DNA from: Escherichia coli
Lineage (GTDB): Bacteria > Pseudomonadota > Gammaproteobacteria > Enterobacterales > Enterobacteriaceae
Direction: 5' to 3' (one strand)
DNA: 64,000 nucleotides
Assembly: GCF_051903065.1 (NCBI RefSeq)
Contig: NZ_CP178438.1
Shown here: positions 51,301 through 54,300 of the stretch, one piece after another
Layout of the letters: each line of letters starts with the position of its first letter
How positions within the stretch are numbered: position 1 is the stretch's first letter
Made by a program: the position numbers

Positions 51301-54300
51301 CACGCCTCTCCCCGCTTTGCCACGGACATATCAATATGCTCGGCCATTATTCCTTCACGCTGGCAGAACTGGTGACCAAAGGACATCTGAGACCATTAAA
51401 AGAGGCGTCAGAGGCAGAAAACGTTGCTTAACGTGAGTTTTCGTTCCACTGAGCGTCAGACCCCTTTTAAGGGTTTTAGTCAGTAGTTTTGTTCGGGCCT
51501 TGCTCGTGTTTGGTTTTCTTTGCGGCAGCGCCAAAAGTTAACGTTCGCTAGTTTGTGAGTTAGTCGCTGGCGGCCAAGGCGGTAGCGTTGTTCCTTCTGG
51601 TTCATTGGCTTCGCTGGTAAACGGTTTTTAAGGTTCCAGCCCATTTCCTGGTATCGCAGCTGGCTGGTTTAGTTTTTAATATTGCACAGGGTTGCCGCTG
51701 TTTGGCATCGCTTGGCGGCAGTGCCGCGTGGGTTTAGTGTGTTGCGGCTAACAATGCGCATCACTCGCAGCCTGCGGCTGCTGGGGCGTCAAACGCTGTC
51801 GCGTTTTTCCGCCCGTGTGCTTTGCGTTAAGCCAATACAAGGAATAAAAACTGTGCCATTTTCTGAAGATGAAAAAGCAGTATTGCTAAGTGTTAAAGGT
51901 GTAGGGCCAAAAGTTGTGGAGCGCTTAGAGCAAATGGGAATTGTAACGCTATCTCAATTGGCGAATGCTGAAATAAATAATATTTTGGAGCATGGCGCAA
52001 ATATCACCGGCTCAACTTGCTGGAAAAATAGTCCGCAAGCAAAGAATGCCATTACTTCTGCAATTCAAGCAGCGCGCAGTTTCCCCCTGACGAAAACTGT
52101 AAAAAAGAAAATATAATTTCTTTAAAATTTACATGGAACCGGTCTACGCCAGTAAGTTTATAGTTGCTTTTTGTTTCGGAAAAACGGCTTAACAAGGTTA
52201 TCAAGCGGATGGTTTTTAAGTAGCTCTTTTGCCATTCCGCTTCGCTCCATTTTATGGCAAAAGTGCTACTTAAAAACCGCCGCTTATAACGGCGTTCTGC
52301 TAACACCTAAAAGCGGACTTTACAGCCTTAAAGTTGGAATGTCTGCAATTGGCACAAAGCCACTATTCGATACAGTGGTACTTTTAGTGAATTAGGTGGT
52401 GCTGTCAGTTTGCAACGAGTGGTGCAACCGACTTGCAAATAGGTGGTGTATTAAATGGAATTAACCACCCACCCTCTATGGTGTAGAAAATCTGGCTATC
52501 GCGCCCGGCTACAGGTCACAAAGCTAGTCTGAATAAAAATTCACAGTCATGAAAGATCAACTTTTAGTCAAATTTGATTTCTGATTAGGTGTAATGTGAT
52601 GCCCCTCATTGCGAAAAGGGCATTTAATTAATCTGCTAAAAAAACACTACTTGTGTGATTAAATGTCAAGCTAAAGTTGTTTCATCGCTTTTGATGCAAA
52701 AAAAATAATGTAGGTATAATTTAACGTGGGAGCATTGCCGGTGTTCTCGAGTGAAATTGGCGAAGCCATTGAGTGCCGGGTTAACCACTGGATAGATAAT
52801 TTTCCTTTTATCTCGTAAAGCGAGCGCCAATTTGATGCACTTATAAAAAACCATCAAATTAATGCGATAAACACTGTGTAAAGCGTTGCGCCCAACTCTC
52901 AATCGACTCAACCGGAATGTTTCCAGCCTCTGCCCCTTGGTGCTTGGGGTGATTAATGCCGATGTGACAGTTTTCACCAAACAACCCATCCAATAACTCG
53001 TTAGGCCAAGATATTGATTTTGCGACCACACCTTTGCGGATAAGAGTGAAATGCTCGATCCAATCCCGTGCATCTGAGCCAAAAATCACTTTGGTTGAGA
53101 GCATTTTGATACCATCTGAGGTATCAACTTCTAACAGCACTACATCAGTCTGCATGTAACGAAGCCGAACGGCCTTAATCGCCCTTTGTGTGCCATTCTC
53201 CAGAAGGTGTTGTTTGCTGCGACCGACCTTAGGCAATGGTAGTGTTTCTTCATGAAGAATTCGGCATTTATGTTTGAACTTTAAAACCTGCAGCATTCGA
53301 TCGAAACTCTTGAAACGACTTGCAAATTGTCGCTCTCGGTCCGTAACGTCCTCTTTGCCACCAACATCTGCCGCAGGCAAGCTGCCGCCTTGATGAGGTT
53401 CTCCTGTGCTCACGTCCCTGCCTGCCTCTTTTTCGGCAAGTTCATCAAAAATCAGATTTGGGCGTTCTTTAACCACTTCCTGTTTGTAAACCCTGCTGGG
53501 CTTTGTAAAGCGGCACCAGGTTAAGTCTCCTTCTAGCATCAATGTTTCATTTTCATCAGAAGCGGATTGTTCGTCATCAATTTCAAACTCTTCGTCAGTT
53601 TGTTGCCAGGCGGTACCGCCAGAGCCACTGCGAGCTTTGCTGTCAGTTTGCTTGTTGTTGACAAAATCCGGATGAATGAACGCAACGCTCTCTGGCAAAT
53701 TGACGTCAAAATCAATCCCGACAATTTCTTCCACTAAATAATGGCTTTTACCGGTGTTGTACCTACCGCGAACATGTAATTTCCAGTTTGTCATCGTAGG
53801 TGGCGTAAAGCTAAAACGCCAGCTCTCCAAACGATCTCTGAACTCACGCGTTTCTTGATAGCGTTGGAAGATGCTTTGGTAAGAGGCCAATGCCTGAGGA
53901 TCTGTCAGTAGCCATGCCAAAAGTTGCTTAGTGCCACTTTGATCAAACGCAGATTTTGGAAAAGTACTGGTTTGTAGCACATGAATATTGACATGATTTT
54001 GTTCAGGTACGGGTTGAACATCAAATTCTAAGGGTAAGGTGGCACTGCTCAAACATGCCCGACAGAGATAGGAATTGACCAAGAAAATAGCCCTGGCAAG
54101 TTCAAGCTGTGGTATAACAATCCAATCGTCTTTGTTACCCCAACAGCAGAAAGCATTCTGAATTCCATCTTTATCTCGGATTGACTTAAAGCTGCTGATC
54201 TCTGGGAAATCAGCCAATTTTGCTTCGATAAGCTTATAGCCAGGTTCAAATGTGATTACTCTGTCTATACGGCGCGATTGTTTTTTCTGACTATTCGGCA

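What the first reader, a model, noticed from the sequence alone, without database searches (positions are those of the whole stretch)
51470..52858. Structured non-coding segment between Tn3 and tnsE: an A-poor G/T-rich block, a small helix-hairpin-helix ORF and a 68-bp hairpin
The segment 51470-51850 is strikingly A-poor on the plus strand, with recurring GCGGCAG/GGCGG motifs. It is followed by a small ORF with a helix-hairpin-helix-like motif, then a near-perfect 68-bp inverted repeat (52211-52278) and about 600 bp with no convincing ORF. This could hold a structured RNA, a recombination site (attC-like sites are imperfect palindromes of similar size), or decayed backbone genes.
Basis: seen in the sequence. 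Interest (0 to 1): 0.4.

Follow-up and report, generated by a model that had tools for sequence, protein, structure and literature searches.

The report
Integron cassette-array end with ORF-less cassette
The segment is the far end of an integron gene-cassette array carried by a Tn7-like transposon: the hairpin is an ordinary cassette recombination site, and the A-poor block belongs to a widespread, apparently undescribed family of non-coding cassettes.

Summary
It is the distal end of an integron array (intI 42829-43788) inside a Tn7-like transposon at glmS.

- **Cassette 4** (46493-46514 plus 51470-51826) is split by a Tn3-family insertion with a TTTTA duplication. It has no ORF. Its body is 13% A, and its attC lies at 51746-51832.
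- **Cassette 5** (51827-52294) encodes an 87-aa helix-hairpin-helix protein. Its attC lies at 52187-52300, and the 68-bp hairpin is the central stem of that attC.
- **attC test.** A covariance model built only from other loci hit exactly these two sites and the two upstream attCs, with no other hit in 64 kb.
- **Flank and spacer.** 52295-52470 is a conserved flank that also follows a different array, starting exactly at G|TT. 52471-52858 is Tn7-like spacer with no convincing ORF.
- **The A-poor family.** I found 164 copies in Rheinheimera, Alishewanella and Arsukibacterium chromosomal integrons, class 1 integrons, a Shewanella plasmid and 64 metagenome contigs. Some sit in tandem runs.
- **What the family lacks.** No conserved ORF, no Rfam match, no compensatory helices and no consensus promoter.

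Its function is unknown.

The parts
42829..43788 (-). Integron integrase gene intI (319 aa). It is not IntI1.
   Evidence: TIGR02249 integron integrase scores 420.8 bits against a cutoff of 265. The IntI1 equivalog model falls below its cutoff. Pfam Phage_integrase and SAM_4 also match.
44542..44636 (+). attC of the dfrA1 cassette (reference attC within the same array)
   Evidence: attC covariance model R1, 42.9 bits, E=7.8e-9.
46400..46498 (+). attC that closes the cassette carrying two trypsin-like protease ORFs. Its R' core GTTAGCA lies at 46492-46498.
   Evidence: R1 scores 33.8 bits. A nearly identical attC occurs in the Rheinheimera sp. UJ63 array at L016 6911-7009.
46493..46514 (+). First 22 bp of ORF-less cassette 4, cut off from the rest by the Tn3-family insertion. 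Includes the left copy of the TTTTA duplication (46510-46514).
   Evidence: E. coli PK5074 (L001 13983-14361) and the P. mirabilis record OL790812 carry the uninterrupted 379-bp cassette.
46515..51464 (.). Tn3-family transposon of 4,950 bp. ORFs sized and placed like blaTEM (286 aa) and tnpR (197 aa), identified from their size and position only; tnpA (1,054 aa).
   Evidence: Terminal repeats of the form GGGGTCTGACGCTCAGTGGAACGAAAACTCACGTTAAG lie at both ends. A 5-bp direct duplication TTTTA lies at 46510-46514 and 51465-51469.
51470..51745 (+). Body of ORF-less cassette 4 (13% A). Member of a conserved non-coding cassette family.
   Evidence: 75-77% identical to homologues in a class 1 integron (pVPH2) and a Shewanella plasmid integron, with homology starting at the G|TTAGCAGG cassette boundary. 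The family has 164 copies and 110 unique full-length sequences. No conserved ORF.
51746..51832 (+). attC of cassette 4 (R'' GGCTAAC, R' GTTAAGC). The crossover point lies between G51826 and T51827.
   Evidence: R1 scores 41.6 bits, E=1.8e-8. It is 90% identical to the attC between a hypothetical-protein cassette and dfrA1 in class 1 integrons, and the identity stops at GTTAA.
51853..52116 (+). Gene of cassette 5: an 87-aa helix-hairpin-helix protein with a GTG start and an AAGGA ribosome-binding site
   Evidence: HHH_5 at E=1.8e-5 and Cdd1 at E=0.0055. 132 homologues, mostly 76-106 aa. Start and ribosome-binding site are conserved. The RefSeq gene call starts inside the attC and is too long.
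52187..52300 (+). attC of cassette 5 (R'' GCTTAAC, R' GTTCTGC). The 68-bp hairpin 52211-52278 is its central stem. The crossover point lies between G52294 and T52295.
   Evidence: R1 scores 26.7 bits, E=1.4e-4, with only four hits in 64 kb, all on the + strand. The bottom strand folds with bulges opposite top-strand positions C16 and A23/T24, as in the aadA2 attC. The apical loop CGCTTCGCTCC is shared with 100-118-nt attCs in Rheinheimera arrays. The right boundary is confirmed by L094.
52295..52470 (+). Conserved segment that follows the array (TTCTGCTAAC...AATTAACCA). It carries direct repeats of GTGGTG...TTGCAA at 52395-52450.
   Evidence: 85% identical in K. pneumoniae IncC plasmid L094, where it follows a different last cassette and starts exactly at G|TTCTGC. 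71-75% identical relatives lie at cargo junctions in IncC plasmids and beside pykF in an E. coli chromosome. Homology ends at AATTAACCA. Repeats.
52471..52858 (.). Spacer of the Tn7-like backbone between the cargo and the 3' end of tnsE. No convincing ORF.
   Evidence: 52349-52858 is 100% identical in K. pneumoniae plasmids whose Tn7-like element carries RND-efflux and MFS cargo instead of the integron. ORFs. There is only a sub-threshold Rfam hit, STnc410, at 23 bits against a gathering score of 50.
52859..54466 (-). tnsE of the Tn7-like transposon. tnsD, C, B and A follow up to 60562, then glmS at 60720-62549.
   Evidence: TnsE_C at E=4.8e-51. RefSeq annotation of the identical locus. The right end carries ACAAAATAGATCTAAA repeats.

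Best explanation
The segment is the distal end of an integron cassette array that is cargo of a Tn7-like transposon inserted downstream of glmS in E. coli. It has four parts.

(a) Cassette 4, an ORF-less cassette of 379 bp. It spans 46493-46514 plus 51470-51826 and was later split by a Tn3-family insertion. Its 13%-A body is followed by an 87-bp attC.

(b) Cassette 5, 468 bp (51827-52294). It encodes an 87-aa helix-hairpin-helix protein and ends in a 114-bp attC. The central stem of that attC is the 68-bp hairpin.

(c) A 176-bp conserved flank that begins exactly at the last crossover point, G|TT.

(d) About 390 bp of Tn7-like spacer before the end of tnsE.

How it works, from established integron biology (inferred here, not shown): the bottom strand of each attC folds into a hairpin. 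The integrase recognises this hairpin through the R box, the L box and the extrahelical bases. It cuts between G and TT to excise or insert the cassette. Sense transcription runs from the integrase end through the array.

The A-poor block is a mobile non-coding cassette of a large conserved family. What is shown: its boundaries, its attC, its presence in several integron classes, and the absence of any ORF. Its role is inferred. I think it most likely acts while transcribed in the sense direction as a cis-acting expression element for neighbouring cassettes, either promoter-bearing or a non-translated RNA spacer (about 35%). About equally likely, it is a self-propagating passenger of the integrase with no benefit to the host (about 30%).
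For: **Context.** An integron integrase is present. The identical locus is annotated as intI-dfrA1-protease-protease-hypothetical-tnsEDCBA-glmS in E. coli PK5074.

**Tn3 insertion.** The terminal repeats and TTTTA duplication are present. The empty site exists in other genomes.

**attC model.** R1 was built from 31 attCs of other loci. Its structure is 89.9% paired against 63% in shuffles, with 0 of 500 shuffles reaching the observed value. It gives exactly four hits in the window at E<=10, all on the + strand, at the predicted cassette ends. It gives 122 hits in eight array loci, all on the array strand.

**Cassette boundaries.**
- Homology of cassette 4 to pVPH2, Shewanella and Rheinheimera copies begins at G|TTAGCAGG.
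- Identity of attC4 to a class 1 attC ends at GTTAA.
- Homology of cassette 5 to metagenomic HhH genes starts at its left boundary.
- A different last cassette in L094 is followed by the same sequence from G|TTCTGC onward.

**Family.** 15 genome loci and 64 metagenome loci hold 164 copies. Mean composition is A 16.6% and T 34%. The family accounts for 45 of 122 cassettes in eight loci. It is the first cassette next to attI in three loci, including a class 1 integron.
Against: - The R' core of the last attC (GTTCTGC) departs from the GTTRRRY consensus. This is expected for a terminal hybrid site, but it lowers the score to 26.7 bits.
- No recombination assay exists for either cassette.
- Neither proposed role of the ORF-less cassette has direct support. 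[quoted passage not shown] Runs of six to eight consecutive copies are hard to reconcile with a pure promoter role.
- The invariant sequence blocks and the uniform strand asymmetry are hard to reconcile with a purely neutral passenger.
- The 176-bp flank has no explained function.
Confidence: 0.9

Rival explanations
1. The A-poor block encodes a structured non-coding RNA, transcribed on the + strand, whose fold carries the function.
For: G+U-rich sense RNA can pair through wobbles. One hairpin (A2 columns 205-217 with 225-236) is 95% paired, against 7-48% when the partners are slid. It has variants CCAGCC/GGCUGG and CCGGUU/AACCGG linked by G-U intermediates. Two hypervariable spots carry different short hairpins in different subfamilies (by eye).
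Against: No Rfam family matches, even at E<=5. Folding z-scores are +1.45 and -1.53 on the sense strand, and +0.72 and -1.03 on the antisense strand. The RNAalifold covariation term is only -0.85 kcal/mol. Shuffles reach the observed pairing in 46 of 500 trials. In 110 sequences no helix shows compensatory change beyond clade structure.
Confidence: 0.15
2. The A-poor cassette is a selfish, highly mobile minimal cassette that spreads through the integrase without benefit to the host. Its T-poor bottom strand might even help its own attC to fold, for example through low affinity for single-strand-binding protein.
For: It has very high copy number and occurs in tandem runs: 8-10 copies in 6.7 kb of L034 and 6-7 in 3.3 kb of L062. 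It is found with at least four types of integrase context and at least three attC types. It is often the first cassette. It has no ORF.
Against: Its first-position frequency (3-4 of 11 loci) is no higher than its share of cassettes in these loci (about 37%). Invariant blocks across subfamilies suggest purifying selection. Its single-stranded DNA does not fold less stably than that of ORF cassettes: -0.113 against -0.095 kcal/mol/nt. This removes the simplest form of the 'nothing competes with attC' idea. The binding-protein idea was not tested.
Confidence: 0.3
3. The segment is decayed Tn7-type backbone (remnants of ybeA-ybgA-like genes), and the hairpin is a transcription terminator of a backbone gene.
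For: The position between cargo and tnsE resembles that of ybfA, ybfB and ybgA in Tn7 (from my own knowledge of Tn7). A short hairpin followed by a T-run is flagged on the minus strand at 52294-52278.
Against: The segment occurs in only 7 of 5,426 complete E. coli genomes, all with this Tn7-like element. The transposon proteins are not those of Tn7. The block is a full-length member of a family that never has a conserved ORF. The number of terminator-like sites equals the chance expectation: 3 found against 2.4 expected. The 68-bp hairpin has no T-run after it on the ORF strand, and it scores as an attC.
Confidence: 0.03

Closest known systems
attC sites (59-base elements) of integron gene cassettes, for example those of the aadA2 and dfrA1 cassettes
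   Same: They share the R''/R' cores with AAC...GTT and an unpaired spacer (AAG opposite GGC, as in dfrA1). The L box has an extrahelical base at top-strand position 16 and a second bulge at position 23/24. A variable central stem-loop follows. The orientation matches the array, and the site lies at the 3' end of the cassette.
   Different: The R' of the last site is GTTCTGC, not GTTRRRY. The central stem is unusually long and nearly perfect (25 bp). Recombination was not tested.
Gene-less (ORF-less) cassettes with promoter activity in Vibrio chromosomal integrons (PMC11014356) and in Treponema oral-metagenome cassettes (PMC6557892)
   Same: The cassette has a normal attC and no ORF. It is interspersed in long chromosomal arrays, and some copies have been captured by mobile integrons.
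   Different: Here a single conserved sequence family (71-79% mean column identity) spans several genera and integron classes. It has an extreme strand asymmetry (A about 16%, T about 34%), occurs in tandem runs, and has no consensus promoter. Promoter activity was not tested.
sRNA-Xcc1, an integron-encoded small RNA of Xanthomonas (as cited in review PMC8876359)
   Same: It is a non-coding function carried in an integron cassette and spread by transposons and plasmids.
   Different: No Rfam family was reported in the searches of the window segment or of four related loci. There is no terminator, no evidence of a discrete transcript, and no supported fold.
The class 2 integron region of Tn7 (dfrA1-sat2-aadA1-orfX, then ybfA/ybfB/ybgA, then tnsE)
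   Same: An integron is carried as cargo between the left end and tnsE of a glmS-targeting transposon with tnsABCDE. dfrA1 is the first cassette.
   Different: The integrase is different and intact: 319 aa with no internal stop. The Tns proteins and end repeats differ. There are no ybf or ybg genes, and the cassettes differ. This comparison with Tn7 rests on my own knowledge of Tn7.
The 3' conserved segment of class 1 integrons
   Same: A fixed sequence starts at the crossover point of the last attC and is shared by arrays with different cassettes (window and L094).
   Different: It is 176 bp and non-coding, with direct GTGGTG...TTGCAA repeats. Relatives also occur without any attC, at cargo junctions of IncC plasmids and in an E. 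coli chromosome. Its function is unknown.

Membership tests
attC recombination site (hairpin region 52187-52300) | Outer core sites: R'' of the form RYYYAAC and R' of the form GTTRRRY, complementary to each other | tested here: met
   R'' is GCTTAAC and fits exactly. R' is GTTCTGC, which keeps GTT and the final Y but not RRR. Five of seven positions pair. The departure is as expected for the last site of an array. The same hybrid R' closes a different cassette in L094.
attC recombination site (hairpin region 52187-52300) | L box with extrahelical bases on the folded bottom strand, and an unpaired spacer between the R and L boxes | tested here: met
   The bottom-strand fold shows a 3x3 spacer, a bulged G (top-strand C16) and an internal loop at top-strand A23/T24. 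The aadA2 attC in L003 has its extra bases at the same positions, C16 and A23 (read from the sequences). The reference alignment has an unpaired column 16.
attC recombination site (hairpin region 52187-52300) | Significant score against an attC covariance model, on the array strand only | tested here: met
   26.7 bits, E=1.4e-4. There are four hits in 64 kb at E<=10 and none on the minus strand. The model was home-made from 31 sites and is not IntegronFinder's.
attC recombination site (hairpin region 52187-52300) | Marks a cassette boundary: synteny breaks exactly at G|TT in independent arrays | tested here: met
   In L094, a cassette encoding a VOC-family protein ends ...GCG|TTCTGCTAACACCTAAAAGCGG. 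From TT onward this is identical to the window.
attC recombination site (hairpin region 52187-52300) | Recombined by an integron integrase as a folded bottom strand | not testable with these tools
   Needs an excision or integration assay.
attC recombination site (51746-51832) | Covariance-model score, and homology to an attC that lies between cassettes elsewhere | tested here: met
   41.6 bits. It is 90% identical to the attC upstream of dfrA1 in class 1 integrons of 15 plasmids.
Integron | An integron-type tyrosine recombinase next to, and divergent from, an array of attC-bounded cassettes | tested here: met
   TIGR02249 scores 420.8 bits against a cutoff of 265. Four attCs lie on the opposite strand downstream. 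attI and the Pc promoter were not mapped.
ORF-less (gene-less) integron cassette | Bounded by G|TT crossover points, has its own attC, and has no conserved ORF | tested here: met
   Boundaries. attC. Stop-free runs have a median of 22-24 codons in each sense frame across 108 copies. Neither strand keeps an open frame at a consistent position in the 38 copies examined. Indels are mostly 1, 2, 7 or 11 nt. There is no clear 3-nt periodicity: none over the first two-thirds, and only weak power at period 3 (2-3 times the mean) in the last third.
Promoter-bearing gene-less cassette | Promoter activity on the sense or antisense strand | tested here: inconclusive
   No sigma-70 consensus site was found in the window copy or in eight Rheinheimera copies: 0 found against 1.1 expected. 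The published work states that such promoters cannot be predicted in silico (PMC11014356).
Known structured RNA family (Rfam 15) | A match to a curated covariance model, or a fold supported by covariation | tested here: not met
   Nothing matches in 51470-51830 at E<=5, and nothing matches in four other loci at E<=1. There is no significant covariation.
Tn7 backbone (ybeA-ybgA region) | Sequence homology to the Tn7 region between the cassettes and tnsE | tested here: not met
   Near and distant searches of all complete E. coli genomes return only the 7 carriers of this element plus a few partial relatives. I did not align the segment directly to a Tn7 record.
Intrinsic terminator (for the 68-bp hairpin) | A G+C-rich stem followed by a T-run on the transcribed strand | tested here: not met
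   On the + strand the stem is followed by CGCCGCTTATAAC. The only flagged sites are short minus-strand stems, at the chance rate.

The most novel reading that the evidence does not exclude
The A-poor block represents an undescribed, functional family of non-coding integron cassettes. It is maintained by selection on sequence and strand composition rather than on an ORF or a fold. It is the commonest cassette in several chromosomal integrons and has repeatedly been captured by clinical mobile integrons (class 1, and the integron of this Tn7-like element). It may act through its strand-asymmetric single strand or transcript. For example, it could boost its own recombination or insulate or drive expression along long arrays.
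Probability: 0.35. Interest if true: 0.7.

Novelty: new member of a known kind. Interest (0 to 1): 0.5.

Why it matters
For annotation, the segment is blank or mis-called in public records: the gene call for the HhH protein starts inside an attC. It resolves into two cassettes, two attCs and a conserved array flank, and this fixes the cassette content of a Tn7-like integron now present in clinical E. coli and Proteus.

For integron biology, most cassettes have unknown functions, and gene-less cassettes have only recently been shown to matter, as promoters. A single conserved non-coding family makes up about a third of the cassettes in the arrays sampled here. It forms tandem runs and has already entered class 1 integrons on resistance plasmids. 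That makes it a concrete, testable model for what non-coding cassettes do, or for whether cassettes can be selfish.

The 176-bp flank that recurs at cargo junctions of IncC plasmids may mark an unrecognised recombination or insertion hot spot next to resistance cargo.

Tried and rejected
- **Coding potential of the A-poor block, both strands.** Stop-free stretches fall in different places in different copies. The window copy has none of 45 codons or more on the + strand. Indels are not multiples of three. Rejected.
- **Rfam.** The window segment gave only microRNA-type hits on the hairpin, far below threshold, and a 23-bit STnc410 hit. Four related loci gave nothing for the family.
- **Structured RNA.** RNAalifold, my own covariation scans on 38 and 110 sequences, the pair-count controls and the MFE z-scores give no support beyond one wobble-tolerant hairpin.
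- **Consensus promoters and terminators.** None in the family. Terminator-like sites are depleted: 1 found against 7.2 expected.
- **'Structure-free single-strand spacer that lets attC fold'.** Family bodies fold at least as stably as ORF cassettes under DNA parameters. Rejected in this simple form.
- **The 52349-52470 repeats as TnsB-binding sites or a transposon end.** The right end of the Tn7-like element has different repeats. No inverted partner exists in the window, in L001 or in an IncC island. The neighbouring genes in IncC encode a RecD2-like helicase, not a transposase. Unresolved.
- **Literature.** Searches by protein accession, by Tn7-like/integron/dfrA1 terms, by ORF-less cassette terms and by Rheinheimera found no description of this element or family.
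- **First strict regular-expression search for attCs.** It found too few sites. I relaxed the pattern.
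Full report
**1. Setting**

The window is E. coli chromosome. Its order is pst genes, a chaperone-usher fimbrial operon (34.2-40.4 kb), an IS3-family element, then a Tn7-like transposon ending at glmS. The transposon's tnsE, D, C, B and A genes lie on the minus strand at 52859-60562. glmS follows at 60720-62549. The right end carries ACAAAATAGATCTAAA repeats. The Tns proteins are not those of Tn7.

The cargo next to tnsE is an integron:
- an intact 319-aa integron integrase at 42829-43788 (TIGR02249, 420.8 bits; below the cutoff of the IntI1 model);
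- a dfrA1 cassette;
- two trypsin-like protease ORFs;
- the segment under study.

The same locus, 100% identical over 51466-52858, occurs in seven complete E. coli chromosomes and in a P. mirabilis chromosome record held in the plasmid collection. In E. coli PK5074 it is annotated intI, dfrA1, protease, protease, hypothetical protein, tnsE.

**2. The Tn3 junction**

A 4,950-bp Tn3-family element lies at 46515-51464. It carries tnpA plus ORFs with the size and position of blaTEM and tnpR. It has the usual terminal repeats and a 5-bp TTTTA duplication at 46510-46514 and 51465-51469. PK5074 and the Proteus record have the empty site.

**3. Observation check**

All four observations hold.
- The block is 13% A in its body and has the most negative AT skew in the window.
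- The small ORF has a helix-hairpin-helix match.
- The inverted repeat has 25-nt arms that are 96% complementary, with folding z near -8.
- The last 564 bp have no convincing ORF.

**4. The two hairpin-like sites are attCs**

I collected 87 candidate attCs from cassette arrays of other loci and aligned 31 diverse ones. I then checked a structure made of a 7-bp R box, a 3-nt unpaired spacer, and an 8-bp L box with an unpaired column 16.
- 89.9% of cells pair, against 63% in shuffles.
- The covariation score is 0.63 against 0.15.
- 0 of 500 shuffles reach the observed value.

The covariance model built from this alignment was searched over all 64 kb on both strands at E<=10. It gave exactly four hits, all on the + strand:

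| Site | Coordinates | Score |
|---|---|---|
| attC of dfrA1 | 44542-44636 | 42.9 bits |
| attC after the proteases | 46400-46498 | 33.8 bits |
| attC of cassette 4 | 51746-51832 | 41.6 bits |
| attC of cassette 5 | 52187-52300 | 26.7 bits, E=1.4e-4 |

The last hit contains the 68-bp hairpin as its central stem. In eight array loci the model gave 122 hits, all on the array strand.

The folded bottom strand of 52185-52300 shows the R box, a 3x3 spacer, a bulged G and a second internal loop. The extra top-strand bases sit at positions 16 and 23/24. These are the same positions as in the aadA2 attC of a class 1 integron (sequences). The apical loop CGCTTCGCTCC recurs in 100-118-nt attCs of Rheinheimera arrays.

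No attC lies between the two protease ORFs, so they form one cassette.

**5. Cassette boundaries**

*Cassette 4, left.* Homology to the copies in pVPH2, a Shewanella plasmid and Rheinheimera starts at G|TTAGCAGG, and the upstream sequences are unrelated.

*Cassette 4, right.* Its attC is 90% identical to an attC that precedes dfrA1 in class 1 integrons of 15 plasmids. The identity stops at GTTAA.

*Cassette 5, left.* Four metagenomic homologues of the HhH gene become alignable within about 10 nt of G|TTAAGCC. They share the AAGGA ribosome-binding site and the GTG start.

*Cassette 5, right.* In K. pneumoniae IncC plasmid p2020C07-229-184k, an array runs dfrA6, a DUF3265 ORF, a hypothetical protein, then a VOC-family protein. 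It ends in a different attC (28.2 bits). After ...GCG|TT, its sequence continues TTCTGCTAACACCTAAAAGCGGACTTTACAGCC..., identical to the window from 52295 onward.

This fixes the end of the array at 52294/52295. It also explains the odd R' core GTTCTGC as a hybrid terminal site.

**6. The HhH gene**

From GTG 51853 the product is 87 aa. It has 132 homologues at E<=1e-3, nearly all 76-106 aa. Some are named helix-hairpin-helix or 'pathogenicity locus' (Cdd1) proteins, in Pseudomonas, Azospirillum and many metagenomes. The 120-aa RefSeq gene call and the 144-aa mechanical ORF both start inside attC4 and are over-extended. No close solved structure exists. The protein's function was not pursued.

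**7. The A-poor block is one member of a large family**

*How it was found.* A distant DNA search found 75-77% identical copies in a class 1 integron on pVPH2, on Pseudomonas megaplasmids and other plasmids, and in a Shewanella xiamenensis plasmid integron. In the Shewanella plasmid it is the first cassette, and its attC is interrupted by a group II intron.

*Genomes.* A two-anchor pattern scan of one genome per species returned 15 loci:
- nine Rheinheimera;
- three Alishewanella;
- two Arsukibacterium;
- Photobacterium halotolerans;
- Brucella grignonensis. Here it is the first cassette after an integrase with the same match statistics as the annotated IntI1 of pVPH2, so I read this locus as a class 1 integron.

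*Metagenomes.* A second pattern scan returned 64 metagenome contigs.

*Copy number and composition.* A profile search finds 164 copies, of which 110 are unique and full length. Each is about 290 nt plus its own attC. Mean composition is A 16.6%, C 20.1%, G 29.1%, T 34.2%. No copy exceeds 20.7% A. The body is linked to at least three attC types: about 55 nt, about 60 nt and 85-87 nt.

*Arrangement.* Copies are separate cassettes, often consecutive. L016 has seven in 2.4 kb. L034 has eight to ten in 6.7 kb. L062 has six to seven in 3.3 kb. In eight loci the family accounts for 45 of 122 cassettes. These loci were selected for containing the family, so this share is biased upward.

**8. What the family is not**

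*Not coding.* There is no conserved open frame on either strand. The median stop-free run is 22-24 codons in each sense frame. Indels are 1, 2, 7 and 11 nt. There is no clear codon periodicity: none over the first two-thirds, and only weak power at period 3 in the last third.

*Not a known RNA.* No Rfam family matches.

*Not demonstrably structured.* Folding z-scores run from -1.5 to +1.45. The RNAalifold covariation term is -0.85. The best hairpin pairs in 95% of cells, but shuffles do equally well because G and U dominate. In 110 sequences the column correlations follow clade structure, not helices.

*No consensus promoter or terminator*. A published study of Vibrio gene-less cassettes found sense promoters in most of them, and reported that they cannot be predicted in silico (PMC11014356).

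*Not a weakly folding spacer*.

What remains is sequence-level conservation in blocks: GCTCGCGT, CGCCAGTTTGT, GCGGTAGCGTTGTTC, GTATCGCA, and GCGGCA..GCCGCG. Two of these blocks were part of my search patterns, so their conservation is partly an effect of how the copies were found. Also remaining are two hypervariable spots and a uniform strand asymmetry, always in the same orientation relative to the attC.

**9. Most likely role**

*Shown:* it is a mobile, non-coding cassette that has moved between chromosomal arrays and at least four integrase contexts.

*Inferred:* its function. I rank two readings about equally.
- A cis-acting element that works while transcribed in the sense direction. It could be promoter-bearing, as in Vibrio, or a non-translated, A-poor spacer that offers no AUG or Shine-Dalgarno sequence.
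- A self-propagating passenger of the integrase.

Tandem runs argue against a simple promoter. Invariant blocks argue against pure neutrality. Its first-position frequency (3-4 of 11 integrase-linked loci) matches its overall abundance, so there is no evidence of special recruitment.

**10. After the array**

*52295-52470: a discrete conserved unit, TTCTGCTAAC...AATTAACCA.*
- It follows the L094 array at 85% identity.
- Relatives at 71-75% identity lie at the edge of inserted cargo in IncC plasmids of Salmonella, Providencia, Shewanella and others. Another lies beside pykF at the edge of an island in an E. coli chromosome. No attC is nearby in these cases, and homology always stops at AATTAA(C/T)CA.
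- It contains direct repeats of GTGGTG-N8-TTGCAA.
- It is not the TnsB-site type of this transposon, and it has no inverted partner.
- In K. pneumoniae plasmids with the same Tn7-like backbone, RND-efflux and MFS cargo replaces the integron. The junction is at 52349, inside this unit. The same cargo joins an IncC relative of the unit at the same point.

I could not explain this unit. It behaves like a recurrent cargo junction.

*52471-52858.* This is specific to the Tn7-like backbone and has no convincing ORF.

**11. Verdict**

The hairpin and the small ORF are ordinary integron parts. The '600 bp' is a conserved array flank plus transposon spacer. The interesting result is the A-poor block: a conserved, abundant ORF-less cassette family for which I found no description in Rfam or in the searchable literature.

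Noticed in passing
window 52349-52470; L020 5001-5134, L021 5001-5119, L022 6001-6173, L028 9001-9142, L094 2720-2895: A module of about 120-176 bp with GTGGTG...TTGCAA direct repeats recurs at the edge of inserted cargo in IncC plasmids, beside pykF in an E. coli chromosome, and after two different cassette arrays. It always ends at AATTAA(C/T)CA. RND-efflux and MFS cargo joins it at the same point (TTTTGGCACAAAGCC) in two different replicons.
   Followed up: partly
window 44609-46390: Two trypsin-like serine protease ORFs (295 and 263 aa) sit in one cassette. The attC model finds no site between them. The spacer keeps only the 5' half of an attC-like sequence.
   Followed up: partly
window 51754-52116 (RefSeq gene call, L001 14289-14651): The public annotation starts the HhH gene at an ATG inside the upstream attC, giving 120 aa. 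Homologues and the conserved ribosome-binding site with GTG start indicate 87 aa.
   Followed up: yes
L004 6269-8137 and 10250-12114: Group II introns with reverse transcriptase genes are inserted, in reverse orientation, into attC sites of the Shewanella xiamenensis plasmid integron. One interrupts the attC of the A-poor family copy that is the first cassette.
   Followed up: partly
L094 765-2728 (K. pneumoniae IncC plasmid NZ_CP129795.1): A dfrA6 cassette array with three attCs lies next to the IncC ParA/KorB genes. No integrase gene is annotated within the roughly 1.5 kb between dfrA6 and those genes.
   Followed up: partly
window 43824-43844 and 44021-44041 (L001 11314-11334 and 11511-11531): A 21-nt inverted repeat (AGACTTCTCAGTAACACCTGA / TCGGATGTTACTGAGAGGTCT) lies in the intI-attI intergenic region. 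Further CTGAGAAGTCAGTAA-like copies are nearby. These may be integrase or regulator binding sites.
   Followed up: no
L016 6911-7009 versus window 46400-46498: The attC of the protease cassette is almost identical to an attC in the chromosomal array of Rheinheimera sp. UJ63. This points to Rheinheimera-type integrons as the source of the non-resistance cassettes in this clinical element.
   Followed up: partly
window 19900-20330: This is the only other region with an AT skew as extreme as the A-poor block, but of opposite sign (+0.43, T-poor on the + strand). It lies within a 445-aa ORF on the minus strand (19871-21208).
   Followed up: no
L062 1004-3076 and L034 693-3948: Different subfamilies of the A-poor cassette alternate within tandem runs, for example the longer subfamily with an AGCCGGCTGTC start followed by the shorter one. 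This suggests segmental duplication of blocks of two or three cassettes.
   Followed up: no
window 34244-42226: A chaperone-usher fimbrial operon (three fimbrial subunits, an usher and a chaperone) and an IS3-family transposase lie between pstS and the integron. PK5074 has only an IS3 element there.
   Followed up: partly
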